Below are positions 21,652-51,869 of a DNA stretch of 64,000 nt, piece by piece. The stretch lies in contig NC_087245.1 of assembly GCF_037042905.1 (NCBI RefSeq), positions 9,116,001 through 9,180,000 on the forward strand. Reading direction: 5' to 3'. The notes under the pieces were generated by a model. It searched no databases, was not told where the DNA came from, and was given only the letters and a program-made list of their open reading frames with translations. Source of the DNA: Lytechinus pictus. Lineage: Eukaryota. Every line of letters begins with the position of its first letter. The first letter of the stretch is position 1. The position numbers and the translations under genes were made by a program.

Positions 21652-22142
21652 ATAACGTGGAGAAGGTTTACGGTTCACCATGTGTAATATGAAGAAGGGA
21701 AGGAAATACAGGCAGGAAAATTGAAATAGAAAGACGAGAAAGGATGAAAAGAGGAAATTAGAAGGATTCTTTTCTTGAAAGTGAGTGAAGTCCTGAAAAG
21801 GACTGTAAACCAGATGAGATGAGCTGAATATGGCTTGAGCTAGTAGCGATGGTTTGACTAGTAGCAGGATGACAGTCAACCTGCCCGAAATGTCGAGTAA
21901 CCTTCATCCTGCTACTACTAAACCTACTACTAAACAATCGCTATACTCAAGCCATATTCAGCTCATCCATGTCATCTCATCTGGTTTACAGTCCTTTTCA
22001 GGACTTCACTCACTTTCAAGAAAAGAATACTTCTAATTTCCTCTTTTCATCTTTTCTCGTCTTTCCATTAAAAATTTTCTGGCTGTATTTCCTTCCCTTC
22101 TTCATTTTACACATGGTGAACCGTAAACCTTCTCCACGTTAT
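21652..22142. mobile_element. ~490-bp near-palindromic element, probably an inverted Penelope-like terminal repeat; left-truncated copies start units 2 and 3 of the triplication
   Basis: ATAACGTGGAGAAGGTTTACGGTTCACCATGTG ... CACATGGTGAACCGTAAACCTTCTCCACGTTAT. The apex has a hammerhead-like stem plus GAAA (G(A/G)CAG-TCAAC-CTGCC-CGAAATGTCGAG). The palindrome is seen directly; the class is inferred. Confidence 0.6.
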
Positions 22143-22706
22143 GAAATCATAATTGTTTCATTTATTGTGTGTAAATTATATGTCTTCATTATAATGAAAC
22201 AAGCTGCAGCAAGGAGTATCTAATGCACTAAATGAGTTGTCATTCTTATTTGTTAAGTTCATGTTAGAAAAAAATTGAATATAAACCTAATTTCATATAA
22301 TAAAATACAAAAGAACAAGTAGGGATATGAAATGATCGGTTTGCTCATAGAATATTCGTGAAGACATGCCTAGAACTTTTTAGAACTAAAGAGAACTAAC
22401 TCTGTGCTACAACTAGCTGCATGTCCTTACAATGCATTGCCCCAATCGTCTTTGCCATGTAAGGTGCCTAATGATCTCGAAAAAAGCACAATATGGATGG
22501 ATGGCCGTTGCACTTTGTGTGTGTTTGTTTGTCAGCAGCGCATAATTTGCAATTAAAGGAGAATGAAACCCTTGAAACCAGCTGAATCCATATCAAAGAG
22601 AAAAATCAAAGAACCATGGTAACAAAATCGTTATTTGGGCCGCAATTTTTGCTAGCCTCTGATAGCGGATGAAGTGGGTAGGGGTGTGTAGCTTGTATTT
22701 TGTATG

Positions 22707-22926
22707 CACTCTAAAAATATTCGTTAAAAGTGCTCCATGAGGGTAATCATGTGTCCAACCAACATTGGGCATTTCTTTTATTTATCCAGTGTGATGAAAA
22801 TTTTGCCATTCTAAAGTAATTGGTGCTTATTTTTTAACCTTACTGGACAATATGCTTCCCCAAATTGGTTGGAGACATAATCGTGTCGTGGTGGTAAAAA
22901 TTTTACCCAATATTTTTTTTACAGTG
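22707..22926. mobile_element. CACTA/CMC-like MITE (also present in units 2 and 3)
   Basis: TG|CACTCTAAAAA ... TTTTTACAGTG|TG: CACT/AGTG termini with a 2-bp TSD. Confidence 0.6.
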
Positions 22927-24615
22927 TGGGTGTCAGCCTGTGCGCCCAAATGTAATAGAATGAATGTAAAGGCGGTCTTCCTCTATTATATTATTTGAAC
23001 TATAAGGATATTTCAATTCAATTTAAATAAACATTCAATTTCTTCAAATTTCACCAATTATCATTTTTCAATATGAATTATACAAAATTATTTGTCATAA
23101 AAAATAGATATATAACATTTTTTCACAAACATCTGTTAACAAACATTTTTGTTACCCACTATATACATGAATTTAGATGTTTTTAATCTACCTGATTATC
23201 TGTTTATTTTTTTCCTTTAATTCTTCCTAAATTGATCCAGGAAGGGTCGCGCTACACGATCACAAACTGAAAATAGTGACAATGGAAAAAGTGATCTATA
23301 TGATTTGATTTGTTTTTATTACTTTAGCCAAGGGGAAAATACCTCATTAATAATTGACTAAATGAAGGACAAGATTTGTTATTTTCATTACATACTAAGA
23401 TGAGTTACAAAAGACTTAGTCGAGAGGATTGTCTTTCAGAACAAAAATCTGTCTGTTTTATAATAGCCAAAGGGCACATAGATAATGAAGAGCGTGTCGA
23501 AGTTGTGATATCATTATGAAACATATATTTTAGCCGTTGGTCACAAATCGTAAGATTTTACGGGGGAGTGACAACTTATAAGGCTTTAATTTACTTTCTG
23601 TCAATAGCCAAGACACTTTACTGCGTACATGTTACCGGGATAGCAGTACGTTCTATCAAGGGTCGACAGAATGTTCAATCTCATGTAACAATACAAGCAA
23701 CCGTTAATATTCGAAGGAACCTATTTCAAGACAAGTGTTACTTCAGTTTATAAGGTAAGGGTAAAATAAGAATAGGGGTAATTTCGATAGATCTATTGAC
23801 CCCCCCCCCCCTTTATTTTTTAGTGAGTCTGATAGTTTTCGAATCATTAGCATACCATCCGGGCATATGAGTCAACGTATAGATGTAGTGCTTATGCTAT
23901 ATTATAGGGTAATCGTGTAACTCGATCATTCGAAAAAGGGCCCCTAATTTCCAAAAGGTGAGGTTAATGGATACTAAAAAATTAGCTTTTTGAATAGGTG
24001 CGCCTCGTCACAAGACTGGTGATATTTGTGAACGTTTGTGAAAGTTTCCTTTAAATGGCATGCGATTCTGAAACCTTTAATAACCCCATTTCAAGTCCTC
24101 AACTACTTTTATCTTGGCAAGATAATTCTAAACATTCTAAACAGTATAGTCTTGTGATATTTGCCCACTTGAATGGTAACACACTATTTCACTATACTCA
24201 GTACTTTCATACAGCAAAAACTATGTACCCAGTAGCAGTGGCGTACCTAGGATTTTCCACAGGGGGGGGGCAAAACCGTCCGCCCAAAAATTTGACAAGA
24301 AAAAAAAAAAAAAAAAAAAAAAGGTCTTCGAACACAAATAAAGGATTTCGTACCAGAAAAAAATTGACAAGCAAAAAAAAAATAATAAATAAATTTTGTT
24401 GGATTAAAGCATGAAAATTTCAACCTTGTTTCTCTTTTATATATATATATACATATATATAAATGTGTGAAGTTATACATGTACAACAGCTTTGGCAACT
24501 CTTTTAATCGTAAATATTGTAAAGAAATGAATTAAGAGAACAATGGTAGGCGTAGCTTAAATCAAGGTTCCCCAGAGCTTTCTACCCTTTGGAAAAATTG
24601 GTGATGCCGAAAAAA

Positions 24616-24682
24616 TGTATCTGCCGGGAATCGAACCCGGGCCCCCAGCTTTGAACGCCGGTGCCTTAACCACTAGACCACA
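24616..24682 (-). pseudogene. 5'-truncated inverted copy of the TCA-anticodon tRNA-like gene
   Basis: Reverse complement reads TGTGGTCTAGTGGTTAAGGCACCGGCGTTCAAAGCTGGGGGCCCGGGTTCGATTCCCGGCAGATACA; the 5' acceptor strand is lost at the inversion junction. Confidence 0.7.
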
Positions 24683-24831
24683 AAGCAATGGCTTTGATCC
24701 AGCTGAGGCATGGCGGCTTGTCATTGTTCAAAACCCACCTTCACCCGACAAAGGAAATTATAATTGGTATAATGTCAAAAATCTGTCTATCTGACGGTCA
24801 ATCGGATCGGGGTCGCCCTAGCCAATAACCC

Positions 24832-24902
24832 GTCTCTGTGGTCTAGTGGTTAAGGCACCGGCGTTCAAAGCTGGGGGCCCGGGTTCCATTCCGGCAGAGA
24901 CA
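24832..24902 (+). pseudogene. TCA-anticodon tRNA-like copy with damaged T-arm
   Basis: Perfect acceptor stem GTCTCTG/CAGAGAC, but the B box reads GGTTCCATTCC with a 1-nt loss in the T-stem. Confidence 0.7.
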
Positions 24903-25237
24903 TTTTTTCGGCATCACCAATTTTTCCAAAGGGTAGAAAGCTCTGGGGAACCTTGATTTAAGCTACGCCTACCATTGTTCTCTTCATTCATTTCTTTACA
25001 ATATTTAAAATTAAAAGAGTTGCCAAAGCTGTTGTACATGTATAACTTCACACATTTGTATACTTTCTCCCATACGTGTACTGTATCAAAGCAATGGCTT
25101 TGATCCAGCTGAGGCATGGCGGCTTGTCATTGTTCAAAACCCACCTTCACCCGACAAAGGAAATTATATTTGGTATAGTGTTGAAAATCTGTCTATCTGA
25201 CGGTCAATCGGATCGGGGTCGCCCTAGCCACTAACCC

Positions 25238-25309
25238 GTCACTGTGGTCTAGTGGTTAAGGCACCGGCGTTCAAAGCTGGGGGCCCGGGTTCGATTCCCG
25301 GCAGAGACA
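25238..25309 (+). tRNA. Repeat-borne tRNA-like gene, anticodon TCA (25271-25273), followed directly by TTTTTT
   Basis: 72-nt cloverleaf: acceptor GTCACTG/CAGAGAC (1 mismatch), D-stem GTCT/AGGC, anticodon stem CCGGC/GCTGG with loop GTTCAAA, 4-nt variable loop, T-stem CCGGG/CCCGG with loop TTCGATT. A box TGGTCTAGTGG, B box GGTTCGATTCC. Function unproven. Confidence 0.6.
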
Positions 25310-28300
25310 TTTTTTCGGCATCACCAATTTTTCCAAAGGGTAGAAAGCTCTGGGGAACCTTGATTTAAGCTACGCCTACCATTGTTCTCGTCATTCATTT
25401 CTTTACAATATATATATATATATATATATATAGTCATATCGTTATATATTTATTTATTCATACATTCATTTATTTACAGCTTGCGATTCCCTTACGACAC
25501 TGCTATAAAAAGAACACGGTGTCACACAGTGTGATCACAGTCTGTTCACATAGTGGACTATGTGATAATTTCATTCACCCTCAGGTGAAATGCTCAAATT
25601 TATATAAAAAAGTGTAAATATTTTCACACTGGACACCTCGACAGTGTGACTGTTTACAGCATGTTCACATGGTCGAATATGTGATATTATGTGTTTCACA
25701 CTATTAAAATGCTCATATTAAACAGCGTGAAGATCATTTCACATTGTGTTCGAGAGGCGTCGATCCTTGGGGGCAGGAGGGGACAATCGCCCCATCAACG
25801 AAAATATGGGGGGCAACATAGCGTTTTGCCCCTCCCCCTAATAATCCGTACAAGTGCAAAAAGAAAATAAAACTATAAAGTTACACAAAAATAGGCAAGT
25901 CAATCAAATCCATTATAAAATTAGGTTTTTACATCTATAGTACAAAACAAAATTATGATTTTCCGCGCGCTCCGCGCGGGAAATGATTCCATCTTTTATT
26001 GGAACTTTTGTTAAGGTACATTCACGCAGGAATTTCAATATATAGGCATTCTTTTTTGCCAATGAATAAACTAGAAAGTGGCAAACGCTTTTTTTATAGG
26101 CGGATCCAGGTGAGTTAGGTATACCTGGAAGTTGATTTTGAAAAACGACTTAAAATTCCCCTTTTCATGACTGCTTTATCATTAATTTCGGCTCGCGATT
26201 TGCGCTCGCATTATTAAAAAATATATCTATGTACCCATGCACCCTATTCATAATTAAAAAAGTGCTTAAAGTGTCCAGTTTTTAGGTCTTAATATCAAAA
26301 GATTTATGAGGCTTGATAGATATATAAATAAGATAATAACATATCCATGAATTCCTAATGATTACATTGTCCCTATTTTCAGAATGGGACATCAACGAAT
26401 TAATCTCGAGTTTAGGAAGAGGAATAGGAAGGTAATCATTATTTTTTTTATTATGACAAAATGTCCTTAAAATGTCCAGATCCAAGATCAAAAATGATAA
26501 TTAAAAATAATCAGAATATGAAGAAGGGAAGGAAATACAGGCAGGAAAAATTGAAATAGAAAGACGAGAAAGGATGAAATGATTAAATTAGAAGGATTCT
26601 TTTCTTGAAAGTGAGTGAAGTCCTGAAAAGGACTGTAAACCAGATGAGATGAGCTGAATATGGCTTGAGCTAGTAGCGATGGTTTGACTAGTAGCAGGAT
26701 GACAGTCAACCTGCCCGAAATGTCGAGTTACCTTTATCCTGCTACTACTAAACCTACTACTAAACAATCGCTATACTCAAGCCATATTCAGCTCATCCAT
26801 GTCATCTCATCTGATTTACAGTCCTTTTCAGGACTTCACTCACTTTCAAGAAAAGAATACTTCTAATTTCCTCTTTTCATCTTTTCTCATCTTTCCATTT
26901 AAAATTTTCTGGCTGTATTTCCTTCCCTTCTTCATTTTACACATGGTGAACCGTAAACCTTCTCCACGTTATGAAATCATAATTGTTTCATTTATTGTGT
27001 GTAAATTATATGTCTTCATTATAATGAAACAAGCTGCAGCAAGGAGTATCTAATGCACTAAATGAGTTGTCATTCTTATTTGTTAAGTTCGTGTTAGAAA
27101 AAAATTTAATATAAACCTAATTTCATATAATAAAATACAAAAGAACAAGTGGGGATATGAAATGATCGGTTTTCTCATAGAATATTCGTGAAGACATGCC
27201 TAGAACTTTTTAGAACTAAAGAGCACTAATTCTGTGCTACCACTAGCTGTATGCCCTTGCAATGCATTGCCCCAATCGTCTTTGCCATGTAAGGTGCCTA
27301 ATGATCTCGAAAAAAACACAATATGGATGGATGGCCGTTGCACTTTGTGTGTGTTTGTTTGTCAGCAGCGCATAATTTGCAATTAAAGGAGAATGAAACC
27401 CTTGAAACCAGCTGAATCCATATCAAAGAGAAAAATCAAAGAACCATGGTAACAAAATCGTTATTTGGGCCGCAATTTTTGCTAGCCTCTGATAGCGGAT
27501 GAAGTGGGTAGGGGTGTGTAGCTTGTATTTTGTATGCACTCTAAAAATATTCGTTAAAAGTGCTCCATGAGGGTAATCATGTGTCCAACCAACATTGGGC
27601 ATTTCTTTTATTTATCCAGTGTGATGAAAATTTTGCCATTCTAAAGTAATTGGTGCTTATTTTTTAACCTTACTGGACAATATGCTTCCCCAAATTGGTT
27701 GGAGACATAATCGTGTCGTGGTGGTAAAAATTTTACCCAATATTTTTTTACAGTGTGGGTGTCAGCCTGTGCGCCCAAATGTAATAGAATGAATGTAAAG
27801 GCGGTCTTCCTCTATTATATTATTTGAACTATAAGGATATTTCAATTCAATTTAAATAAACATTCAATTTCTTCAAATTTCACCAATTATCATTTTTCAA
27901 TATGAATTATACAAAATTATTTGTCATAAAAAATAGATATATAACATTTTTTTCACAAACATCTGTTAACAAACATTTTTGTTACCCACTATATACATGA
28001 ATTTAGATGTTTTTAATCTACCTGATTATCTGTTTATTTTTTTCCTTTAATTCTTCCTAAATTGATCCAGGAAGGGTCGCGCTACACGATCACAAACTGA
28101 AAATAGTGACAATGGAAAAAGTGATCTATATGATTTGATTTGTTTTTATTACTTTAGCCAAGGGGAAAATACCTCATTAATAATTGACTAAATGAAGGAC
28201 AAGATTTGTTATTTTCATTACATACTAAGATGAGTTACAAAAGACTTAGTCGAGAGGATTGTCTTTCAGAACAAAAATCTGTCTGTTTTATAATAGCCAA

Positions 28301-29546
28301 AGGGCACATAGATAATGAAGAGCGTGTCGAAGTTGTGATATCATTATGAAACATATATTTTAGCCGTTGGTCACAAATCGTAAGATTTTACGGGGGAGTG
28401 ACAACTTATAAGGCTTTAATTTACTTTCTGTCAATAGCCAAGACACTTTACTGCGTACATGTTACCGGGATAGCAGTACGTTCTATCAAGGGTCGACAGA
28501 ATGTTCAATCTCATGTAACAATACAAGCAACCGTTAATATTCGAAGGAACCTATTTCAAGACAAGTGTTACTTCAGTTTATAAGGTAAGGGTAAAATAAG
28601 AATAGGGGTCATTTCGATAGATCTATTGACCCCCCCCCCTTTATTTTTTAGTGAGTCTGATAGTTTTCGAATCATAAGCATACCATCCGGGCATATGAGT
28701 CAACGTATAGATGTAGTGCTTATGCTATATTATAGGGTAATCGTGTAACTCGACCATTCGAAAAAGGGCCCCTAATTTCCAAAAGGTGAGGTTAATGGAT
28801 ACTAAAAAAATAGCTTTTTGAATAGGTGCGCCTCGTCACAAGACTGGTGATATTTGTGAACGTTTGTGAAAGTTTCCTTTAAATGGCATGCGAATCTGAA
28901 ACCTTTAATAACCCCATTTCAAGTCCTCAACTACTTTTATCTTGGCAAGATAATTCTAAACATTCTAAACAGTATAGTCTTGTGATATTTGCCCACTTGA
29001 ATGGTAACACACTATTTTACTATACTCAGTACTTTCATACAGCAAAAACTATGTACCCAGTAGCAAAATGGGTTCATTCTTCAGGCCAGAATATACGTGT
29101 CGAGTTCAAATCACTTTTATGTCTTTTCCTAATTTCATATAAACAGCGTTTCAAAACGCCGATCGTAAACAGACAAAAAATGTGCGTTTACGATCGTTGT
29201 TTCTCCAGAATCACGGTTTCTGGGGAAATTATAATTCACTGAAAGGTAGTATTGATGATAATTTGTTTTAGTGTAATCACGTAAATTATTACGTTGAAAA
29301 GTATTTGCAGGCCGGACTTGCCATGCTCAGAAGAGGCAAACATTATGTTGATGAAGCATCAATGAAATTAGTGTAGTCGACAGGAAAAGAGGACAGCAAT
29401 ACTTATTTGAATATTATATATAATATAATATGATATATATAATGTGATGACAAGTTTACTTGTACCAAACGCTCTTGAGGTGTGAGTATGAAACATATTG
29501 TAATGAGGCCAACTCCTGCGTCATCTTTTGAGTTGGCCTCATCACA

Positions 29547-29552
<6 letters not shown>

Positions 29553-29634
<82 letters not shown>
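29553..29634. repeat. (TA)n microsatellite
   Basis: Direct observation. Confidence 0.97.
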
Positions 29635-29637
<3 letters not shown>

Positions 29638-30027
29638 GGTAGATACTCCACGTGTTTGAGTAATATTTAGAGAAACAAATTTGAAACTTTCATGCTTTAA
29701 TCCAACAAAATTTATTAAAGTCCACAAATTTTCGACGAGTACATACCGTCGATCGCCCCATCAAAGACGGTATGTACTCGTCGGAAATTTGTGGACTTCA
29801 ATAAATTTGGTTGGATTAAAGCATGAAAGTTTCAACCTTGTTTCTCTTTTATATATATATATACATATATATAAATGTGTGAAGTTATACATGTACAACA
29901 GCTTTGGCAACTCTTTTAATCTTAAATATTGTAAAGAAATGAATGAAGAGAACAATGGTAGGCGTAGCTTAAATCAAGGTTCCCCAGAGCTTTCTACCCT
30001 TTGGAAAAATTGGTGATGCCGAAAAAA

Positions 30028-30094
30028 TGTATCTGCCGGGAATCGAACCCGGGCCCCCAGCTTTGAACGCCGGTGCCTTAACCACTAGACCACA
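30028..30094 (-). pseudogene. 5'-truncated inverted TCA tRNA-like copy (unit 2)
   Basis: Same sequence as 24616-24682. Confidence 0.7.
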
Positions 30095-30243
30095 AAGCAA
30101 TGGCTTTGATCCAGCTGAGGCATGGCGGCTTGTCATTGTTCAAAACCCATCTTCACCCGACAAAGGAAATTATAATTGGTATAGTGTCAAAAATCTGTCT
30201 ATCTGACGGTCAATCGGATCGGGGTCGCCCTAGCCAATAACCC

Positions 30244-30314
30244 GTCTCTGTGGTCTAGTGGTTAAGGCACCGGCGTTCAAAGCTGGGGGCCCGGGTTCCA
30301 TTCCGGCAGAGACA
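30244..30314 (+). pseudogene. TCA tRNA-like copy with damaged T-arm (unit 2)
   Basis: Same sequence as 24832-24902. Confidence 0.7.
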
Positions 30315-31956
30315 TTTTTTCGGCATCACCAATTTTTCCAAAGGGTAGAAAGCTCTGGGGAACCTTGATTTAAGCTACGCCTACCATTGTTCTCGTCATT
30401 CATTTCTTTACAATATATATATATATATATATATAGTCATATCGTTATATATTTATTTATTCATACATTTATTTATTTACAGCTGGCGATTCCCTTACGA
30501 CCCTGCTATAAAAAGAACACGGTGTCACACAGTGTGATCACAGTCTGTTCACATAGTGGACTATGTGATAATTTCATTCACCCTCAGGTGAAATGCTCAA
30601 ATTTATATAAAAAAAGTGTCAATATTTTCACACTGGACACCTCGACAGTGTGACTGTTTACAGCATGTTCACATGGTCGAATATGTGATATTATGTGTTT
30701 CACACTATTAAAATGCTCATATTAAACAGCGTGAAGATCATTTCACATTGTGTTCGAGAGGCGTCGATCCTTGGGGGCAGGAGGGGACAATCGCCCCATC
30801 AACGAAAATATGGGGGGCAACATAGCGTTTTGCCCCTCCCCCTAATAATCCGTACAAGTGCAAAAAGAAAATAAAACTATAAAGTTACACAAAAATTGGC
30901 AAGTCAATCAAATACATTATAAAATTAGGTTTTTACATCTATATTACAAAACAAAATTATGATTTTCCGCGCGCTCCGCGCGGGAAATGATTCCATCTTT
31001 TATTGGAACTTTTGTTAAGGTACATTCACGCAGGAATTTCAATATATAGGCATTCTTTTTTGCCAATGAATAAACTAGAAAGTGGCAAACGCTTTTTTTA
31101 TAGGCGGATCCAGGTGAGTTAGGTATACCTGGAAGTTGATTTTGAAAAACGACTTAAAATTCCCCTTTTCATGACTGCTTTATCATTAATTTCGGCTCGC
31201 GATTTGCGCTCGCATTATTAAAAAATATATCTATGTACCCATGCACCCTATTCATAATTAAAAAAGTGCTTAAAGTGTCCAGTTTTTAGGTCTTAATATC
31301 AAAAGATTTATGAGGCTTGATAGATATATAAATAAGATAATAACATATCCATGAATTCCTAATGATTACATTGTCCCTATTTTCAGAATGGGACATCAAC
31401 GAATTAATCTCGAGTTTAGGAAGAGGAATAGGAAGGTAATCATTATTTTTTTTATTATGACAAAATGTCCTTAAAATGTCCAGATCCAAGATCAAAAATG
31501 ATAATTAAAAATAATCAGAATATGAAGAAGGGAAGGAAATACAGGCAGGAAAAATTGAAATAGAAAGACGAGAAAGGATGAAATGATTAAATTAGAAGGA
31601 TTCTTTTCTTGAAAGTGAGTGAAGTCCTGAAAAGGACTGTAAACCAGATGAGATGAGCTGAATATGGCTTGAGCTAGTAGCGATGGCTTGACTAGTATCA
31701 GGATGGCAGTCAACCTGCCCGAAATGTCGAGTTACCTTTATCCTGCTACTACTAAACCTACTACTAAACAATCGCTATACTCAAGCCATATTCAGCTCAT
31801 CCATGTCATCTCATCTGGTTTACAGTCCTTTTCAGGACTTCACTCACTTTCAAGAAAAGAATACTTCTAATTTCCTCTTTTCATCTTTTCTCATCTTTCC
31901 ATTTAAAATTTTCTGGCTGTATTTCCTTCCCTTCTTCATTTTACACATGGTGAACC

Positions 31957-32671
31957 CCCGGGGGGGGGGGGGGCACTCAGTATAAATGCATAGTGGGTAT
32001 GTGCCGCGGAGGGGATCCCCATTTTTACACTCAAATTTCCGTTCCAAGGCATAGCATTTTTGTCTTATTGAGAAAAAGAACAAAGAAAGCCGCTCCAAGG
32101 CATAGCATTTTCTTCTTATCGAGAAAAAAGAAGAAAGATACCCGCTCCAAAGCTTCGCATATTTTCCGCTACGCCGTTCCGGTCGCATTGATCTGCTACG
32201 ATGAGCCGTAATTTTGGTGAAAAGCGGCCGGAGAGTAGTCTGCTGGGCAAACCCTTCGCTCGAGTTAAGGGTCTGAATGTGCAGCCTACTCATGCCTTGT
32301 GTACTGAAGGCTCGGAACAGCAAGTTTTGTATGTGCTAGTCTTTGCGTGGAGGCACACTTGTTGATCAAAGTTCCAATGAGGGTCTGTGCCTGCAGACTA
32401 GCCGGAGAGCGCTGTCCGACCATCGTCTCTGCGCTGGCGCAGCCGTCGCCTGTGCGCCGTGCTAGCTGCATGCACGTATGCTCGTTCCATTGGGATGCAC
32501 ACGCAGGCGACCCGTTCCAAGGACCCCCGTTTTCACAAACATTTGTAGTTCCGAAGCCCGTTCCGAGGACCCTCCTTTTTACAATAAGCCCGCTCCAAGG
32601 CCCCCGTTTTTTGTCTCGCCCGCGGCACACCCCTACCACTTTTTTTGGTCGAGTGCCCCCCCCCCCCCGGG
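31957..32671. mobile_element. 715-bp GC-rich non-autonomous DNA transposon with 8-bp TSD, present only in unit 3
   Basis: TIR CCCG(G)nCACTC ... GAGTG(C)nGGG. GGTGAACC is duplicated at 31949-31956 and 32672-32679. The empty site CATGGTGAACCGTAAA is present in units 1 and 2. Confidence 0.9.
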
Positions 32672-35600
32672 GGTGAACCGTAAACCTTTTCCACGTTATG
32701 AAATCATAATTGTTTCATTTATTGTGTGTAAATTATATGTCTTCATTATAATGAAAAAAGCTGCAGCAAGGAATATATAATGCACTAAATCAGTTGTCAA
32801 TCTAATTTGTTAAGTTCGTGTTAGAAAAAAATTGAATATTAACCTAATTTCATATAATAAAATACAAAAGAACAAGTAGGGATATGAAATGATCGGTTTG
32901 CTCATAGAATATTCGTGAAGACATGCCTAGAACTTTTTAGAACTAAAGAGAACTAACTCTGTGCTACAACTAGCTGCATGTCCTTACAATGCATTGCCCC
33001 AATCGTCTTTGCCATGTAAGGTGCCTAATGATCTCGAAAAAAGCACAATATGGATGGATGGCCGTTGCACTTTGTGTGTGTTTGTTTGTCAGCAGCGCAT
33101 AATTTGCAATTAAAGGAGAATGAAACCCTTGAAACCAGCTGAATCCATATCAAAGAGAAAAATCAAAGAACCATGGTAACAAAATCGTTATTTGGGCCGC
33201 AATTTTTGCTAGCCTCTGATAGCGGATGAAGTGGGTAGGGGTGTGTAGCTTGTATTTTGTATGCACTCTAAAAATATTCGTTAAAAGTGCTCCATGAGGG
33301 TAATCATGTGTCCAACCAACATTGGGCATTTCTTTTATTTATCCAGTGTGATGAAAATTTTGCCATTCTAAAGTAATTGGTGCTTATTTTTTAACCTTAC
33401 TGGACAATATGCTTCCCCAAATTGGTTGGAGACATAATCGTGTCGTGGTGGTAAAAATTTTACCCAATATTTTTTTACAGTGTGGCTGTCAGCCTGTGCG
33501 CCCAAATGTAATAGAATGAATGTAAAGGCGGTCTTCCTCTATTATATTATTTGAACTATAAGGATATTTCAATTCAATTTAAATAAACATTCAATTTCTT
33601 CAAATTTCACCAATTATCATTTTTCAATATGAATTATACAAAATTATTTGTCATAAAAAATAGATATATAACATTTTTTTCACAAACATCTGTTAACAAA
33701 CATTTTTGTTACCCACTATATACATGAATTTAGATGTTTTTAATCTACCTGATTATCTGTTTATTTTTTTCCTTTAATTCTTCCTAAATTGATCCAGGAA
33801 GGGTCGCGCTACACGATCACAAACTGAAAATAGTGACAATGGAAAAAGTGATCTATATGATTTGATTTGTTTTTATTACTTTAGCCAAGGGGAAAATACC
33901 TCATTAATAATTGACTAAATGAAGGACAAGATTTGTTATTTTTCATTACATACTGAGATGAGTTACAAAAGACTTAGTCGAGAGGATTGTCTTTCAGAAC
34001 AAAAATCTGTCTGTTTTATAATAGCCAAAGGGCACATAGATAATAAAGAGCGTGTCGAAGTTGTGATATCATTATGAAACATATATTTTAGCCGTTGGTC
34101 ACAAATCGTAAGATTTTACGGGGGAGTGACAACTTATAAGGCTTTAATTTACTTTCTGTCAATAGCCAAGACACTTTACTGCGTACATGTTACCGGGATA
34201 GCAGTACGTTCTATCAAGGGTCGACAGAATGTTCAATCTCATGTAACAATACAAGCAACCGTTAATATTCGAAGGAACCTATTTCAAGACAAGTGTTACT
34301 TCAGTTTATAAGGTAAGGGTAAAATAAGAATAGGGGTCATTTCGATAGTTCTATTGACCCCCTCCCCCTTTTATTTTTTTAGTGAGTCTGATAGTTTTCG
34401 AATCATTAGCATACCATCCGGGCATATGAGTCAACGTATAGATGTAGGGCTTATGCTATATTATAGGGTAATCGCTTAACTCGACCATTCGAAAAAGGGC
34501 CCCGAATTTCCAAAAGGTGAGGTTAATGGATACTAAAAAATTAGCTTTTTGAATCAATGCGCCTCGTCACAAGACTAGTGATATTGTAAACGTTTGTGAA
34601 AGTTTTCTTTAAAATTGCATGCGAATCTGAAACCTTTAATAATCCCACTTCAAGTCCTCAACTACTTTTATGCTGGCAAGATAATTCAACATTCTAAACA
34701 GTATAGTCTTGTGATATTTACACACTATTTCACTATACTCAGTACTTTCATACAGCAAAAACTATGTACCCTGTAGCAAAATGGGTTCATTCTTCAGGCC
34801 AGAATATACGTGTCGAGTTCGAATCACTTTTATGTCTTTTCCTAATTTCATATAAACAGCGTTTGAAAACGCCGATCGTAGGCTGACAAAAAATGTGCGT
34901 ATATGATCGTTGTTTCTCCAGAATCACGGTTTCTGGGGAGATTATAATTCACTGAAAGGTTGTATTGGTGATAAATTGTTATAGTGCAATCACGTAAATT
35001 ATTATGTAGAAAAGTATTTGCAGGCCGGACTTGCCATGCTCAGAAGAGTCAAACATTATGTTGATGAAGCATCAATGAAATAAGTGTAGTTGACTTGATA
35101 GGAAAAGAGGACAGCAATACTTATTTTGAATATATATATATATATATATATACATATAGTTATATATATATGTTTTTTTTCTCCAAAACCGTGTACAAAA
35201 ACTTAAAAATGACCATATGATTGTGATTTTTAGCATGGTCAGCCCCCCCCCCCCCCACTTTTGGCTCAGCCCCACCACTTTGAAAACCGTTCCGCGGCCC
35301 CTGCTTACGACCCTGCTGGAAAGATCACAGTGTCACACACTGTGATCACAGTCTGTTCACATAGTGGACTATGTGGAAATTTCATACACACTGGTGAAAT
35401 GCTCAAATTGAAAAATGCGTAGATATTTTCACACTGGACACCTCGACAGTGTGACTTTTCACAGCATCTTCACATGGTCGAATATGTGATATTATGTGAT
35501 TCACACTATAAAAATGCTCATAATTATTACACAGCATGAAGATCATTTCACATTGTGTTCGAGAGGCGTCGATCCTGGGGGGCAGGGGGCGATCGCCCCA

Positions 35601-36437
35601 CCAACGAAAATATGGGGGGCAACATAGCGTTTTGCCCCTCCCCCTAATAATTCCGTATAAGTGCAAAAAGAAAATAAAACTATAAAGTTACACAAAAATG
35701 GACAAGTCAATCAAATACATTATAACATTTGTTTTTTACATTTATAGTACAAAACAAAATTGTGATTTTCCGCGCGCTCCGCGCGCTCCGCGCGGGAAAT
35801 GATTCCATCTATCATTGGAACATTTGTTAAGGTACATTCACGCAGGAATTTCAATATATAGGTATTCTTTTTTTCCAATGAACAAACTAGAAAGTGGCAA
35901 ACGCTTTTTTATAGGCGGATCCAGGTGAGTTATGTATACCTCGAAGTTGATTTTGAAAAACGACTTAAAATTCCCCTTTTCATGACAGCTTTATCATTAA
36001 TTTCGGCTCGCGATTTGCGCTCGCATTATTAAAAAAATACATCTACCCATGCACCCTATTCATAATTGAAAAAGTGCTTAAAGTGTCCAGTTTTTAGGTC
36101 TTAATATCAAAAGATTTCGCGCTCTCATGAGGTTTGTTAGATATATAAATAAGATAATAACATATCCATGAATTCCTAATAATTACATTTGGGACCGAGC
36201 CATTGATTAATTCATAACATTACATAACAAATATATTCATACTGATACCAATAAAAAAAATATCACAGCCACCTCAATTATTCAAATGCTATAGCTCAAT
36301 TTGGATCATGGATTACTCATGTAGAGTATTTTGAATTTGTCACGTATTCTCCTTTTAAAGATCCTTTTTACATTAATGTTAAATATTTTGAGACCAGTAT
36401 TCCGAACACTTGTTTCCTTTTGTTTTCATTTATAGAA

Positions 36438-39400
36438 ATGGCAAAGATGATGAGAGGTAAAACCGAGCGTTTGGCACCTTCGGCTGTACTACCATCGATG
36501 AGATCCACACAAGACATTGACAGTAACTTCCATATCATTAGTAGTGGAAGGAGTCAGATACTAAAAAGCATTCTGCTGTTAATACTGGTTATTCTCCAGA
36601 TAGATTACGTCAGCATGTGCCCAGCTGGATGCGTATGTACGACATTTTCCCTAAATGGCTTAAGAGTTGATTGTTCTAACGCTGAGCATACTTTAATTCC
36701 AGAGGATATCCCTTGTTCGACTATATTGTTCATTCTTAATGATAACCTTCTGCAGAGGGTTCACCAAAGGGCATTCCCATGTCAAGTCGATATGCTCTCC
36801 TTGATGCTTCGGAACAATGTCATAAAAATTGTGGAAGAAGGTTCCTTCGAAAACTTAAGGTCACTGATGGAGCTTTCTTTCACAGGAAACAGACTGATAC
36901 GCCTCCCTTCATTTAGACATTGTAAAGACCTCATAAATGTAAATCTGTCGTTCAACTTTTTAAGTGGTTGGCCCTCACACTTTTCCAATGAATCAATATA
37001 TTCTCTATTTTTAATTCGTTCCAATCCATTCGATCATAGTTACAAGAAAAATCATGTAGTACCATATGCAGTACAATTCCTTGACATGTCTGGTGTTGTT
37101 ACCCCTGTGATTTCGTCAAATTCCTTTTCACACCCTGCTCACACTCTGAGACTAGGAATGTCGTCTTGTGGCATTTACCGTGTAAACCCCCTCTCAGAAC
37201 TATCTGCCATAAGATTTATAATATTATCTTACAATCGCATAAGATTCATTGATCTACATGCATTCAGAAATCTCCGGGATTTGATTAAATTAGATCTTAG
37301 ACATAACAACATTCGCACGATTCCGGTTCTTTCTGATTTGCCCTCTCTACAAACGATCAATTTGAATTACAACTCTATATCTGGAGCAATTGAGGGTGCT
37401 CTTATAAACGTACCTAGCCTGGAATCTTTACTTCTTCTTGGAAATTCCATTGTTAACTTATTATTTATTCCTCCGATACCATCTCTTAGGGGGCATATTT
37501 TGAATGAAAATTATTTAGTAGGTTGTCTTAATCTGACACAAGAGGTATCATACTGGCCCTCTATCGAAATCATAAATGTCGCAGATAACGGTCTAACCGG
37601 ACTCAATATCGGGGAATGTTCCAAGGTAGAAATGCTACGTGCTGAAAATAATTTCTTGCGATCCGTCTTCTTTCAGCATCCCATGTCATGTACACACATG
37701 ACCGATATCATTTTGGATTACAATAGAATCCCAAACTTGTTAATTCTCAATGGTTTGGTAAACCCGGAGTTCATTTCCTTCCGTTCTAATCTTGTAGATG
37801 TGTTAGATGAAAATATGTTGATGAATATGAGCAACTTACAGTATTTAGATCTACAGAAAAATATGATAAGAGAATTAATCCGCTTACCCGTCTTACCAGC
37901 ACTTCAGATCCTTGATTTATCTTATAACAAGATACTGTGCATTGATGAAACTGCTTTTGAATTTATCAGTTTGTACCATATCGATCTGAGCGGTAATCAA
38001 CTTTACAGATTAACATCATTTACTGGGGTTCCTTCACTAAAATCGCTATACCTCGACAAGAACCAATTAGTCAATATATTTGCCGCAGATGTAGGGGAAA
38101 TTCCCTCGTTGGAGACTTTGTCTATTGCCGGAAATGGTTTAGCAACCTTCCCTCTGCTGCCACGTAATCGAATCAGACTACTCAACTTAGCTGACAACAA
38201 CATATCGGCATGTGAACTGCCTGTAATTCAGCAATACATTGCTTTGGATATTCTCATCATCAGCGACAATTGGGTCCATTGCAACATCCGTTTTCCCTCG
38301 GCGCTGAGGAGGCTCACAATCGACAACAACAAAATCGAAAGAACGAACGAAACTTTGAAATACTTGCTCTCCGATGTCGAACTTTTGTCCATGAGAAAGA
38401 ACAGAATATCCTCACTTGGTCAAGAAATAAATCCAGGCCCCTCCTTATTATATCTGGATTTATCTCGTAACCATCTGACGTACATTCCACCCTTCAAATT
38501 TTATCTCGCAAGTTCACTGACAACGCTTAAGCTAGAAGGCAATTCTATATCAACCATTAATGAACACTCTTTCTTTGGTCTCGCAAGACTTCACCATCTT
38601 GACCTACAGTGGAATCAAATAACGTCTTTACCTGCTGAGTGTTTCTCACCAATACGTCGCCTAAGTCATTTATATCTTACAGGTAATCCAATCCATACGG
38701 TGCCAGGTTACGTTTTTTCATCATTCGGGCAAATATTGCCAATTAAATATTTGTTCTTTTCTCACTCTAATAGCTTTGGAATATTCCCACCTTCGCTCCT
38801 AAATAGATCTCTGTCTTATATCATCATGAGGAACAACTCAGTGGTAAGAGCCTTATATCAGAACACGTCTTTTCTTTTTAAGCTAGATAATACTGTAGCT
38901 ATCGACTTTAGCCAGAATGTCTTAACAAAAAATATTCCCCGAATAGATTCAAGGAAACTCCGATTATTGAATATATCACACAATTCTTTCAAAATGATAC
39001 CAGAACAGCTTGTGAAAGAATCACACTTCCCTTTTCTCCAAACTATAGATTTATCTTGGAACCAAATCGCAGTTGTTAAGAAGAAAACCTTTTCGTACCT
39101 GACAAAACTAGCCAATGTTTTCCTCAATCACAACGAAATTGTGCTTATACAAAATGGGGCTTTTCCACCATCCTATTCGATAGATTTCTTAGACTTAAGT
39201 GAAAACAACCTAAGTCTCATCAAGATGGAAGAACTGCCTCCTATACACCCTCATCTACATGTTGATACCTCTGGAAACCCGTTGAAATGCGATTGTGATC
39301 TGCAGTTTTTCCAGAATATGTTTCCTGTTTTTACTTCGGCAGTCAATTGTGTTTCTCCATTTGAATCCGGGTTTGAATCCAACAACCTGAGTCTAGCTGA

Positions 39401-40001
39401 TGCTGTACTGAACGGAGAAGAGTGTGAGAGTCTCATGTGTTCGCCTCCCAATCCATTCTTAATCGCCTATGAAGATGATGTCAATTTGATTCTGCCTTGT
39501 CCTTTGAATGTGACAAGATTTGACGAAATCGTTTGGACCCTACCCAGCGGCATGACTCTAAGTATAGCTACAAGCACATGGTCAGAACACCGCGTATTCG
39601 TCACTGCTGAAGGGTCTCTTAATTTCAGTGCCGTAGCAGGGGAAATGTCGGGCAAGTACTTGTGTTCTGCCCCACATTTAGGAGCATACTTAGATTATCC
39701 CCTACACCTCGCTGTGGCTAAACGTGGACGTTCTGTGACACAAAACATATCTATCGCCGCCTCTCTGTGGAAGGGACGAGCCCATTGCGGAAGACATTCA
39801 CCTATCGATAATCAACAGGATCAAGAAAGCATCTTTTTCCCAACGTTTGCAATTATCTTGTTATCAATTCTGTGTGTCATTGTTAGTAGCACACTGGCCA
39901 TCGTTATATGTTGTAGAATGAAGCAGACTTCATCAATGGAAAATGAGTCTGATGGAAATAGATGTCAGATCATGCCGACAGTCAGAACAGAGATAAGATA
40001 A
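36438..40001 (+). CDS. LRR-Ig-transmembrane (LIG-type) cell-surface protein, 1187 aa, single coding exon
   Basis: Acceptor TTTCATTTATAG ends at 36435, ATG at 36438. Domain order: hydrophobic signal-like segment (ILLLILVILQI), LRRNT (CPAGCVC..VDCS), roughly 25-30 LxxLxLxxN repeats, LRRCT (GNPLKCDCDL), Ig domain (LILPCP..IVWTLPSG..SGKYLCSA), TM helix (FAIILLSILCVIVSSTLAIVICC), ~28-aa tail. Confidence 0.93.
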   Translation: MAKMMRGKTERLAPSAVLPSMRSTQDIDSNFHIISSGRSQILKSILLLILVILQIDYVSMCPAGCVCTTFSLNGLRVDCSNAEHTLIPEDIPCSTILFILNDNLLQRVHQRAFPCQVDMLSLMLRNNVIKIVEEGSFENLRSLMELSFTGNRLIRLPSFRHCKDLINVNLSFNFLSGWPSHFSNESIYSLFLIRSNPFDHSYKKNHVVPYAVQFLDMSGVVTPVISSNSFSHPAHTLRLGMSSCGIYRVNPLSELSAIRFIILSYNRIRFIDLHAFRNLRDLIKLDLRHNNIRTIPVLSDLPSLQTINLNYNSISGAIEGALINVPSLESLLLLGNSIVNLLFIPPIPSLRGHILNENYLVGCLNLTQEVSYWPSIEIINVADNGLTGLNIGECSKVEMLRAENNFLRSVFFQHPMSCTHMTDIILDYNRIPNLLILNGLVNPEFISFRSNLVDVLDENMLMNMSNLQYLDLQKNMIRELIRLPVLPALQILDLSYNKILCIDETAFEFISLYHIDLSGNQLYRLTSFTGVPSLKSLYLDKNQLVNIFAADVGEIPSLETLSIAGNGLATFPLLPRNRIRLLNLADNNISACELPVIQQYIALDILIISDNWVHCNIRFPSALRRLTIDNNKIERTNETLKYLLSDVELLSMRKNRISSLGQEINPGPSLLYLDLSRNHLTYIPPFKFYLASSLTTLKLEGNSISTINEHSFFGLARLHHLDLQWNQITSLPAECFSPIRRLSHLYLTGNPIHTVPGYVFSSFGQILPIKYLFFSHSNSFGIFPPSLLNRSLSYIIMRNNSVVRALYQNTSFLFKLDNTVAIDFSQNVLTKNIPRIDSRKLRLLNISHNSFKMIPEQLVKESHFPFLQTIDLSWNQIAVVKKKTFSYLTKLANVFLNHNEIVLIQNGAFPPSYSIDFLDLSENNLSLIKMEELPPIHPHLHVDTSGNPLKCDCDLQFFQNMFPVFTSAVNCVSPFESGFESNNLSLADAVLNGEECESLMCSPPNPFLIAYEDDVNLILPCPLNVTRFDEIVWTLPSGMTLSIATSTWSEHRVFVTAEGSLNFSAVAGEMSGKYLCSAPHLGAYLDYPLHLAVAKRGRSVTQNISIAASLWKGRAHCGRHSPIDNQQDQESIFFPTFAIILLSILCVIVSSTLAIVICCRMKQTSSMENESDGNRCQIMPTVRTEIR

Positions 40002-43334: not shown

Positions 43335-43586
43335 CCATATTTTATTGTTCGAAATAGACATGAAATGAAATACTCCGAAAATTTGCTTTGCCCAATTAAT
43401 CGTGGGCCCGGCAGCCGCTGTGCAGCGCCAGATCGACGAGGCTCTATCCCTTTAATCGTTGAACGCCAAACAGGGTAGCAGCAACTCCCATCTTTTAACG
43501 TCTTTTGGTCTGACGCGGCCGGGATTTGAACCCCCGACCTCCCGGTTGTGAGACGGACGCTCTACCAACTGAGCCAACACACCGGT
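43335..43586 (-). mobile_element. tRNA-derived SINE
   Basis: Minus strand head has A box TGGCTCAGTTGG and B box GGTTCAAATCC, no complete acceptor stem, and runs into a ~180-nt body ending in an AATAAAA/AT-rich tail. Confidence 0.8.
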
Positions 43587-50200: not shown

Positions 50201-51869
50201 ACAGGCTAAATTAATTCCCTTACATAAATCGGGTGACAAATCATCCCCTTTAACTTATCGTCCAATCGCTATACTCTCTCCTGTTACCAAAATTATGGAG
50301 AAAGTAGTTCAAAAGCAGTTAACCAAGTATCTAAGAAATAATAATATACTTTCAATGGAACAGTCTAGTTTTAGGAAAAAACATTCGACCATAACGTCTC
50401 TTATTCGAGTTACGGATGATAAGCTACGCGCCACTGACTCTGGTTTATATACTGGAGCCGTTTTTATCGATATGAAAAAGGCGTTCGATACGGTCGAACA
50501 TCATACTTTGTTAAGGAAACTTAAATCAATTGGAATATCTAAGTCTCATATGGTTCGAAAGTTATCTGAGAAATCGTCAAATCAGTACATTTATTAGCTC
50601 TACGTTATCTGATAGTTTGCTTGTGAGTACCACAAGGCTCAATATTGGGCCCTATTTTATTTACTATATATATATATATAAAGATGACATAGTTAAACAA
50701 GTTAAGCACTGTCAAATCCATCTATACGCTGATGATTCTGTTTTGTATTTTTCTGATAATGACGTAAATCTCATTGAAAGCAATTTAAATGCTGACCTAA
50801 AACGTATATACGAATGGATGTGTTTAAGTTAATTAAGTCTTAATATCGACAAAACTGAAAGTATGTTATTTGGGTCACGTCATATGTTGTCTGTGCACAA
50901 GTCTCTTAATGTCAGAATTTCAGGAAAATATATTCAGTCTAAAGAATTTGTGAAATATTTGGGGGTCTTTATTGATCCAGAGTTAAAATGGAATTGCCAA
51001 ATTGATAAACTTTGTGCTAAAACCAGTAAATTAGTAAATTTCCTTGGTCGGCTTCGTTCATTTTTAAATGAGGATAGTCTGAAATTAATTTACCGTTCAG
51101 TAATTTTGACATTGTTTGATTATGCTGATGTAGTCTTTGATTCATCAACTTTGAAATGTACCCAACAATTGCATAAAATACAAAATAGAGCTTGCAAAAT
51201 AATACTCAAAATTAATCCGTATAAATATATATCTAACCATACTGTTCATCAACTCTTAAACTGGGAGTCATTAAAATCAATGCGTATAAAGCATACTCTT
51301 TCAATGGTTTATAAGAGTCTGAATGGTCTTAGTGCGCCTTACTTGAATAATATATTTTAGTTTTTAACTCATAAATATTCTCTCCGTTCTGATAAAAATC
51401 TTTCTCTCCCTAAACCACGGACTGAATACTGTAGAAGAATGTTTTCATACAGGGGTATGACATATTTTAATGAATTGCCACGTGATGCTAAATGTTCTGT
51501 ATCTTATAGTTCATTTAATAACGTAGTTAATAACCACATCTTGAATTGGGTCTGACTGTACATTATTCTTTGTTGCTCAATTCCTATGCATTGAAATGTA
51601 GGGTGTGTTAACGTAGGGGGTGGGGGCTAGATGTTATGACCTATTAGTTTTATTCTTATTGTTTTGGTATGTTATTTTTATATTGTGTATAAATTTTTTT
51701 TGTGTAATTTTCTTTTATGCTATATGAGGACCCCTCGGTAGGCCAGCAGCACCTTGATTGATGCTGCTGAGTAGGGCCATCCTCCCGTTTTCTATTTATC
51801 AATTCACATGTATCATTTTATATGTATTGTTATCTTTTTTTTTACGGAAATAAATTCAATTCAATTCAA
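47300..51869 (+). mobile_element. Near-full-length decayed CR1/L2-group LINE: ORF1 ~47445-48211, ORF2 ~48377-51550 (PHD finger, APE endonuclease, reverse transcriptase), 3' UTR with (AATTC)n tail
   Basis: ORF1: coiled coil plus EQYSRRNCLRFYGI and EDLT motifs. PHD: CTICHKWVHIAC..WKCPKC. APE: HLNVRSL, LNESWL, WYRPP, VGDLN, LIDH, ISDH. RT: YRPIAILS, FIDMKKAFDTV, LYADD. Multiple stops and frameshifts. 5' boundary approximate. Confidence 0.93.

What the first reader, a model, noticed from the sequence alone, without database searches (positions are those of the whole stretch)
24458..25410. Mobile 406-bp repeat carrying a tRNA-like Pol III gene with a UGA-reading (TCA) anticodon
Seen: a 406-bp monomer in head-to-tail tandem (24683 to 25089; tRNA starts 24832 and 25238), preceded by an inverted partial copy and bounded by (TA)n, repeated in unit 2 at ~29870-30412. 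The consensus of five copies folds into a fully paired 72-nt cloverleaf with canonical A/B boxes and anticodon loop G-T-[TCA]-A-A. A T6 run follows the discriminator immediately, so it looks like a self-contained tRNA-sized transcript rather than a read-through SINE head. Known: true tRNA-Sec has a long variable arm and extended stems, which this lacks. Tandem plus inverted ends in microsatellites are typical of Penelope-like elements, and Naiad-clade Penelope-like elements are reported to use in-frame UGA (selenocysteine). Inference: a transposon-borne opal-suppressor-like tRNA, or a tRNA mimic used as an internal promoter or RNase P/Z processing signal that releases monomer RNA. Caveats: G32 is non-canonical, no single copy here is flawless, and the D-arm resembles tRNA-Glu, so TCA could be a shifted TTC relic.
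Basis: partly seen in the sequence, partly recalled or inferred. Interest (0 to 1): 0.85.

Follow-up and report, generated by a model that had tools for sequence, protein, structure and literature searches.

The report
tRNA-carrying Penelope-type selfish repeat
The stop-codon-reading "tRNA gene" is real as a sequence, but it is a module of a 406-base jumping repeat that inserts the way Penelope-like retroelements do, and older branches of the same repeat carry other anticodons, so it is very unlikely to be a working stop-codon suppressor.

Summary
Observation confirmed; UGA-suppressor/selenocysteine reading not supported. The 406-bp unit is a young genome-wide family: 1,945 TCA-anticodon arm matches, 1,165 flawless 72-nt cloverleaves. 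It inserts in (TA)n with 5' truncation, head-to-head inversion and two fixed 3' ends about 57 nt apart, the Penelope-like 'tail' signature. Older subfamilies carry TCT (9% diverged) or TCC (7%) at the same site. Four subfamily consensuses differ inside the tRNA only at position 36; all keep 21/21 pairs and the non-canonical G32. So TCA is a late single-base change, not a Sec link and probably not a shifted Glu relic. The cloverleaf is about 70% like host tRNA-Arg, -Gly and -Glu alike; its parent is unresolved. A decayed minimal-hammerhead-like motif lies 87-47 nt upstream (profile 5/3000 shuffles; covariance model negative). Best reading: a non-autonomous Penelope-mobilised, retrozyme-like repeat that captured a tRNA gene; partner not identified. 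Open: whether the fold is under selection.

The parts
24458..24685 (-). Inverted, 5'-truncated copy (tRNA nt 6 to the distal 3' end, including the tail)
   Evidence: self-BLAST 24456-24685 vs 25062-24834, 96.5%
24616..24682 (-). tRNA nt 6-72 in the inverted copy (G69T)
24683..25088 (+). First direct 406-bp unit
24705..24709 (+). Position (-127..-123 from tRNA nt 1) where 5' truncation points of other family members cluster; possible RNA 5' end (same place in unit 2: 25111-25115)
   Evidence: 6 of 37 breakpoints, P 0.002 uniform / 0.012 triangular null; TA-junction counts only 14 vs 8 vs 6 loci
24745..24784 (+). Decayed minimal-hammerhead-like motif, copy 1 (family has C3-A8 mismatch; G12 also mutated in this copy)
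   Evidence: not found by covariance model or Rfam
24832..24902 (+). tRNA-like cloverleaf 1, anticodon TCA at 24865-24867, damaged T arm
24903..24908 (+). T6 run (Pol III terminator-like)
25001..25057 (+). About 57-nt 'tail' between the two fixed 3' ends of the family
   Evidence: 3' ends at unit positions ~320-325 and ~372-382 across loci L001-L030
25089..25407 (+). Second direct unit, ending at the proximal 3' end
25151..25190 (+). Decayed minimal-hammerhead-like motif, copy 2
25238..25309 (+). tRNA-like cloverleaf 2, anticodon TCA at 25271-25273, one acceptor mismatch (T4A)
25310..25315 (+). T6 run
25408..25432 (.). (TA)n target microsatellite, right side (left side about 24440-24460)
29868..30419 (+). 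Duplicate of the same insertion (inverted part plus one direct unit) made by a local segmental tandem duplication

Best explanation
A non-autonomous retroelement mobilised by Penelope-like (PLE) enzymes, built like a non-LTR retrozyme: probably a PLE pseudo-LTR with a dead minimal hammerhead that captured a complete tRNA gene and its terminator. Shown: family size, (TA)n targeting, 5' truncation, head-to-head inversion, two fixed 3' ends, long tandem arrays, and anticodon turnover TCT / TCC / TCA under an unchanged fold. Inferred: a long multimeric RNA (read-through or started upstream of the tRNA, perhaps near -127) is primed by a PLE RT-endonuclease on both target strands at two internal sites about 57 nt apart, which gives the inverted-plus-direct insertions. 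The tRNA module most likely serves as an A/B-box (Pol III) cassette or passenger and does not decode. TCA is a single T36A or C36A change that rode the latest burst.
For: Copy number: 1,720 exact arm matches, 99 of 100 listed TCA; 1,945 TCA vs 33 TC[CGT] with one loose pattern. Ends: 3' ends of dispersed loci among L001-L030 sit at one of two positions next to (TA)n; in 6 of 6 independent inverted-plus-direct insertions (L001, L002/3/4/16, L005, L008, L013, L018) one end has the tail and the other lacks it. This matches the PLE tail between two RT start sites (PMC11167929 passages; PMC8557442 section 6). Host Neptune-type PLEs with minimal hammerheads also end at (TA)n. In L027 a PLE 3' end (97% to L106) joins the element head-to-head with no TA spacer. 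Subfamilies: T36 group 9.4% from its consensus, linked to +83C (8 of 9 vs 0 of 47) and +92G (6 of 9 vs 0 of 47); TCC group 6.8%, linked to -12T (9 of 18 vs 0 of 38); TCA groups 3.1% and 1.0%. Inserted copies decay without regard to pairing (32 of 44 changed pairs broken in the T36 group). Hammerhead-like motif: 18.6 bits with a profile learnt only from 10 host PLE hammerheads, 5 of 3000 shuffles as high, sense strand only. RNA-seq reads lie on both strands, run into unique flanks and show no start or end at tRNA boundaries.
Against: No autonomous partner sharing the 3' end was found among 25 PLE loci compared; only 131 of 767 RT candidates were scored and Naiads were not reached. L027 is one case; the three other nearby PLE hammerheads found in 122 loci were separated by TA tracts. 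The hammerhead relic was missed by Rfam and by my covariance model, scores below the training set (26-35 bits), and G8 is already A in 55 of 58 older-type copies, so an intact ancestor is not shown. Six of 7 further TCT copies lack the old diagnostics, so some TCT is recurrent or intermediate and the order TCT before TCA rests mainly on divergence. Standard RNA-seq cannot see a 75-nt tRNA. A fully paired fold about 30% away from every host tRNA compared is not explained by a pure passenger.
Confidence: 0.75

Rival explanations
1. Same element, but the cloverleaf fold itself is selected: it is recognised by RNase P/Z, tRNA-handling proteins or the PLE protein and has taken over the processing or stabilising role of the dead hammerhead.
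For: 21/21 pairs in all four subfamily consensuses while position 36 changed twice and 6 of 120 flank columns changed. Against seven host tRNA types, 8-13 of 21 pairs differ and none is broken. G32 and a free anticodon fit a non-decoding mimic. The hammerhead core is mismatched.
Against: 0 of 42 stem columns vs 6 of 120 flank columns is not significant (about 2 expected). Rare substitutions are as frequent in the tRNA as outside (1.6 vs 1.4 per 100). 32 of 37 insertions start well upstream of nt 1 and only 5 lie at -4..+12. An unsampled or foreign real tRNA as parent would explain the pairing without later selection. This rival overlaps the best explanation on what the element is.
Confidence: 0.25
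2. A transposon-borne opal suppressor or Sec-like helper that lets an autonomous partner read in-frame UGA.
For: 1,165 flawless genes with canonical A/B boxes, U33, A37 and T5 or more; selenoprotein-coding Naiads exist in spiders and clams (PMC8557442 passages); the TCA lineage is the one that expanded most.
Against: TCT and TCC subfamilies also spread. G32 in all. 7/5 fold, 4-nt variable loop and A73 against 9/4, long variable arm and G73 in tRNA-Sec (PMC5330540 passages); the host has its own tRNA-Sec. 104 of 131 PLE RT matches have no stop, 8 have TGA only and 19 have TAG or TAA, with no sign of a family-wide TGA (RT region only, Neptune-biased). More than a thousand active suppressor genes should harm the host (inference).
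Confidence: 0.05
3. An ordinary tRNA-derived SINE or satellite DNA spread by a LINE or by DNA-level recombination, or a foldback DNA transposon.
For: tRNA-like module with A/B boxes; long homogeneous arrays (more than 40 units on C2; arrays on C28); inverted arms in many copies.
Against: The tRNA is internal and followed by T6; most insertions carry sequence upstream of it; no poly(A) or simple-repeat tail of its own; the inverted arms have variable inner junctions and two alternative outer ends, unlike terminal inverted repeats.
Confidence: 0.12

Closest known systems
Non-LTR retrozymes of animals (PMC7229834, passages; preprint 10.64898/2026.07.22.740005, part 1 of 5 and passages)
   Same: Non-coding tandem units of about 170-400 nt, dispersed and in arrays, proposed non-autonomous derivatives of PLE pseudo-LTRs.
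   Different: Defined by a complete type I hammerhead in the units; here only a mismatched relic. 'tRNA' has 0 hits in the preprint and, in the passages shown, refers only to tRNA ligase or processing in the 2020 paper. Circular RNA not tested here.
Schistosoma Sm-alpha / Sj-alpha SINE-like repeats (as reviewed in PMC6765202, passages; the primary paper PMC108972 was not held)
   Same: Tandem units combining a Pol III promoter with a hammerhead; the closest functional layout. That the promoter is tRNA-derived is recalled, not from a call.
   Different: Their hammerhead cleaves; here it looks dead, the tRNA is a complete cloverleaf with a terminator straight after it, and insertions show PLE tails and inversions.
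Non-autonomous PLEs such as Chlamydomonas MRC1, and Naiad/Neptune insertion anatomy (PMC8557442, section 6 and passages)
   Same: 5' truncation, partial tandems, inverted upstream copy, tail at one end, (TA)n preference.
   Different: No tRNA module described in the passages seen (one 'tRNA' hit, on Sec decoding); tail here about 57 nt vs 30-40; partner not found.
Helenus / TRIMp3 (PMC10886601, abstract and Results part 1)
   Same: Non-autonomous retroelements with tRNA-like sequence that inflate tRNA predictions, including false suppressor (CTA) calls in rust fungi.
   Different: Helenus has two LTRs, PBS, PPT and 4-5 bp target duplications; none of that layout is seen here.
Eukaryotic tRNA-Sec (PMC5330540, passages)
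   Same: UCA anticodon only.
   Different: 9/4 fold, 6-bp D stem, long variable arm and G73 are all absent; the host's real gene lies elsewhere.

Membership tests
tRNA-Sec | 9/4 acceptor/T fold, 6-bp D stem, long variable arm, G73 | tested here: not met
   7/5 fold, 4-bp D stem, 4-nt variable loop, A73; family copies not among the two RF01852 matches over cut-off
Functional opal suppressor tRNA | UCA anticodon conserved across propagating lineages | tested here: not met
   TCT and TCC subfamilies with linked diagnostic sites
Functional opal suppressor tRNA | Canonical anticodon loop (pyrimidine 32, U33, purine 37) | tested here: not met
   G32 in all four consensuses; U33 and A37 present; all seven host tRNA types compared have a pyrimidine at 32
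Functional opal suppressor tRNA | Mature, CCA-added, charged RNA and UGA read-through | not testable with these tools
   only standard RNA-seq could be laid
Non-autonomous Penelope-like element | 5' truncation, partial tandems, inverted upstream copy | tested here: met
Non-autonomous Penelope-like element | Two alternative 3' ends (tail) and microsatellite targets | tested here: met
   ends at unit ~320-325 and ~372-382 next to (TA)n; 6 of 6 independent two-armed insertions have one of each
Non-autonomous Penelope-like element | 3' end shared with an autonomous PLE of the genome | tested here: inconclusive
   none among 25 PLE loci; most candidates unscored; one head-to-head chimera, L027
Naiad-associated element | Autonomous partner with N-terminal GIY-YIG, in-frame UGA at Cys sites and SECIS | not tested
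   no Naiad query was available among stored sequences; PF01541 search gave 16 matches, those readable being C-terminal-endonuclease type
Non-LTR retrozyme | Non-coding tandem units of about 170-400 nt | tested here: met
   404-412 bp units, arrays of 2 to more than 40
Non-LTR retrozyme | Complete type I hammerhead in the units | tested here: not met
   C3-A8 mismatch, weak stems; profile hit only; covariance model and Rfam negative
Non-LTR retrozyme | Monomeric circular RNA | not testable with these tools
   tandem DNA copies make junction reads uninformative
tRNA-derived SINE (SINE2) | tRNA head at the 5' end read through into a body and A-rich or simple-repeat tail | tested here: not met
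   tRNA internal, T6 directly after it; 32 of 37 insertions extend upstream
Helenus (TRIMp3) | Two LTRs with internal PBS/PPT and 4-5 bp target duplications | tested here: not met
   head-to-tail units with no internal segment, variable 5' ends, inversions; PBS/PPT not searched for separately

The most novel reading that the evidence does not exclude
A 'tRNA-retrozyme': a Penelope-mobilised parasite in which a perfectly kept tRNA cloverleaf has replaced a dead hammerhead as the RNA processing or recognition signal, with the anticodon free to drift. Its latest burst has left over a thousand intact Pol III genes for a UCA tRNA mimic that the host must silence or that G32 renders harmless.
Probability: 0.2. 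Interest if true: 0.72.

Novelty: new variant of a known kind. Interest (0 to 1): 0.4.

Why it matters
Practical: it explains more than a thousand false 'tRNA-Sec/suppressor' calls in this genome and shows how to spot them (subfamily anticodon turnover). For transposon biology: a tRNA gene carried by Penelope-like machinery was not found in my literature searches, and a young, abundant non-autonomous family with exact ends is a convenient substrate for studying PLE priming. If the fold proves selected, it would be a new way for a retro-parasite to use host tRNA machinery. As a recoding system it is very unlikely.

Tried and rejected
Glu TTC frameshift origin of TCA: plausible on alignment but disfavoured once the oldest copies read TCT. 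Single parent tRNA: Glu 52-53 of 72, Arg-TCT 52 of 72; Arg-CCT best for the D and anticodon arms; Gly-TCC has the same loop lengths and 32 of 46 identity over the printed stretch (by eye, acceptor stem not seen); none stands out. A pattern for a near-identical parent with pyrimidine 32 found nothing. Known ribozymes or other Rfam families in the unit: none at E up to 10 beyond tRNA and weak chance hits. Strong structure outside the tRNA: none, z between -0.7 and +1.5 in 90-nt windows without tRNA sequence. Intact hammerhead as ancestral state: 16 family-like copies have G8 (of 21 matches) but 55 of 58 older-type copies have A8; not shown. Hotspot of 5' ends at tRNA nt 1 (RNase P or Pol III start): 5 of 37 at -4..+12, not clearly above a short-truncation bias. 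The -125 hotspot genome-wide: 14 vs 8 vs 6 loci, partly explained by AT microhomology. Partner search by PF01541 and a Neptune RT query: no shared 3' end. Relatives outside the host: none in JGI metagenome contigs; runs labelled organisms B, C, D hold near-identical words and contigs of B and D keep TCA, but labels are coded and may be the same or a sister species, so this gives no covariation.
Full report
Observation. ARAGORN and Rfam call the tRNAs at 24832, 25238 and 30244 with anticodon TCA. The second block at 29868-30419 is not a second insertion: its flanks are duplicated over kilobases and it shares the private defects of the first (8 differences in 620 bp). The host is an 812-Mb animal genome; 'sea urchin, Lytechinus' comes from earlier notes of the scan and was not tested by me.

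Family size and anatomy. An exact anticodon-arm pattern with the anticodon left open matches 1,720 places, 99 of the 100 listed being TCA. A looser pattern gives 1,945 TCA against 33 others: 19 TCC, 10 TCT, 4 TCG. The complete consensus cloverleaf plus five T occurs 1,165 times, reversed control 0. These counts include long arrays (more than 40 units on C2; C28). In the 30 best-matching loci, dispersed copies end at one of two positions about 57 nt apart, next to (TA)n, while 5' ends vary. In 6 of 6 independent insertions with an inverted arm, the inverted arm ends at the distal site and the direct arm at the proximal site (related loci counted once). This is the Penelope-like pattern: partial tandems, inverted upstream copy, a tail at one end and (TA)n targets (PMC8557442, section 6), explained in vitro by priming on both target strands at two adjacent internal RNA sites (PMC11167929, passages). 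The genome has many intact Neptune-type PLEs whose ends also abut (TA)n and carry minimal hammerheads.

The anticodon is not under UGA selection. I fetched 20 of 58 older-type copies found by a motif upstream of the tRNA, chosen by hand for divergent looks, plus L148 and L149. Six had lost the tRNA; of the 16 readable, 8 have A36 and 8 have T36 (7 TCT, 1 TTT). All 19 TCC copies were fetched; L198, 98% identical to the young type, was left out of the TCC group as a likely private change. Of 7 further TCT copies fetched, only L182 had the old diagnostics and was added to the old group; the other six did not, which shows that some TCT copies are intermediate or recurrent. With these groups, median divergence from own consensus is 9.4% (T36, n=9), 6.8% (TCC, n=18), 3.1% (older TCA, n=9) and 1.0% (young TCA, n=20, biased low by best-hit selection). 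T36 goes with +83C in 8 of 9 (0 of 47 others) and +92G in 6 of 9 (0 of 47); TCC goes with -12T in 9 of 18 (0 of 38 others). The four consensuses differ inside the tRNA only at position 36; all have 21 of 21 pairs and G32. So lineages with Arg-like, Gly-like and stop-reading anticodons all spread, and the non-canonical G32 predates TCA. Inserted copies decay without sparing the stems (32 of 44 changed pairs broken in the oldest group; rare substitutions 1.6 vs 1.4 per 100 inside and outside).

Not tRNA-Sec, parent unresolved. The fold is 7/5 with a 4-nt variable loop and A73, against 9/4, a long variable arm and G73 for eukaryotic tRNA-Sec (PMC5330540, passages). The host's own tRNA-Sec scores 76.9 bits at two places. 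Against host tRNAs the element is 52-53 of 72 identical to Glu and 52 of 72 to an Arg-TCT gene. Arg-TCT shares the T stem fully and 11 of 14 acceptor bases; Arg-CCT shares 7 of 8 D-stem bases; Gly-TCC has the same loop lengths and 32 of 46 identity over the part printed (by eye). Against each of seven host types 8-13 of 21 pairs differ, yet none is broken. Either the parent is a real tRNA I did not sample (possibly foreign or extinct), or the fold was kept by selection. Within the family the data cannot decide: 0 of 42 stem columns against 6 of 120 flank columns.

A probable hammerhead relic. At -87 to -47 from tRNA nt 1 lies a two-block motif like the host PLE hammerhead cores. A profile learnt only from 10 host PLE hammerheads scores it 18.6 bits, reached by 5 of 3000 shuffles, with no antisense hit; the training set scores 26-35. 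A regular expression set after seeing the motif hit 6 of 20,000 shuffles. Against this, Rfam and my covariance model do not find it, stem II is weak, and the base at G8 is A in 55 of 58 older-type copies. C3-G8 pairing belongs to the core (PMC4209133 and PMC11167929, passages), so the motif is probably dead; I put about 0.6 on it being a true relic. Hammerhead cleavage was not needed for insertion in vitro in the one PLE tested.

Template RNA. In 38 loci taken in order from the list, 37 had a 5' breakpoint in reach; 32 lie more than 12 nt upstream of tRNA nt 1. So the copied RNA is mostly neither a Pol III transcript begun at the tRNA and ended at T6 nor an RNase P product. Six of 37 breakpoints fall at -127..-123 (P 0.002 uniform, 0.012 with a short-truncation bias), a possible RNA 5' end; a genome-wide count of TA junctions gave only 14 loci there against 8 and 6 at two control places. 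Two RNA-seq runs give 1,898 and 1,334 reads of 12.9 million each, on both strands, 37-60% of the laid share running into unlike flanks, with no start or end at the tRNA borders: passenger transcription in host RNAs. These libraries cannot show a 75-nt tRNA.

Partner. No autonomous PLE sharing the 3' end was found among 25 loci. Only 131 of 767 RT candidates were scored, all Neptune-like, so Naiads were not reached. Of the 131, 104 have no stop, 8 have TGA only and 19 have TAG or TAA: no sign of recoding in that set, RT region only. L027 joins a PLE 3' end (97% to L106) head-to-head with the element without a TA spacer, a single hint; the three other nearby hammerheads in 122 loci were separated by TA tracts.

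Comparison with known systems. It works like non-LTR retrozymes and non-autonomous PLEs and resembles the promoter-plus-hammerhead repeats of schistosomes, but fails strict retrozyme membership because the hammerhead is incomplete. Helenus is the precedent for transposon-made false suppressor tRNAs but has LTR anatomy. Nine full-text searches showed no description of this family or of a PLE-mobilised element with a whole tRNA gene, judged from listings and the passages named. Repbase, Dfam, most subscription journals and all supplements were unseen and could hold a named entry.

Verdict. A real, abundant, probably undescribed variant of non-autonomous Penelope-mobilised repeats; the opal anticodon is a late accident. 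The part still worth work is whether the tRNA fold is selected. Earlier notes of this scan reached a similar 'not a suppressor' verdict on other copies; they are leads, not independent support.

Noticed in passing
window 29636-29850 (remnant at 24388-24440): Head-to-head pair of truncated ends of another Penelope-like family in the same TA tract, each keeping the 3' half of a minimal hammerhead; one arm has an extra tail of about 36 nt. Same anatomy as the finding.
   Followed up: partly
window about 21686-35158: Segmental tandem duplication of roughly 5 kb units (96-99% identical blocks at 21686-24237, 26515-29065, 32115-34778 and others), which copied the element.
   Followed up: partly
window 24236-24390; also flank of L149: Short insertion present in unit 1 only, beginning with a GC-rich terminal motif also seen interrupting an old family copy; looks like a DNA-transposon end.
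   Followed up: no
window 36255-40001 +: 1,248-aa stop-free frame of leucine-rich repeats with a likely Ig-like and transmembrane end; probable single-exon LRR receptor.
   Followed up: partly
window 47427-51360 +: Broken APE-type LINE (endonuclease and RT pieces).
   Followed up: partly
window 1029-1439 +: Exon of an OATP-family transporter.
   Followed up: partly
window 43511-43583 -: tRNA-Val(CAC)-like sequence, 38.6 bits, weak acceptor stem and no T run after it; probably a SINE head.
   Followed up: partly
L007:2697-3118: About 420-bp insertion with terminal inverted repeats inside one unit of a tandem array, then flanked by further units.
   Followed up: no
L162 and L171: Two old TCT copies carry an insertion or duplication inside the anticodon stem with shared sequence.
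   Followed up: no
tRNA position 69 in L001, L011, L015, L028, L147, L158, L195: The same G69T change, which breaks an acceptor pair, recurs across subfamilies and in single units of arrays; possible mutation or RT-error hotspot.
   Followed up: no
G000:C10:18627009-18627054: A family copy with pyrimidine 32 and anticodon TCC, i.e. a canonical-looking loop; flanks not seen.
   Followed up: no
G000:C21 locus L096: tRNA-Arg(TCT) isodecoder differing from the C12 cluster type; two matches on C21.
   Followed up: partly
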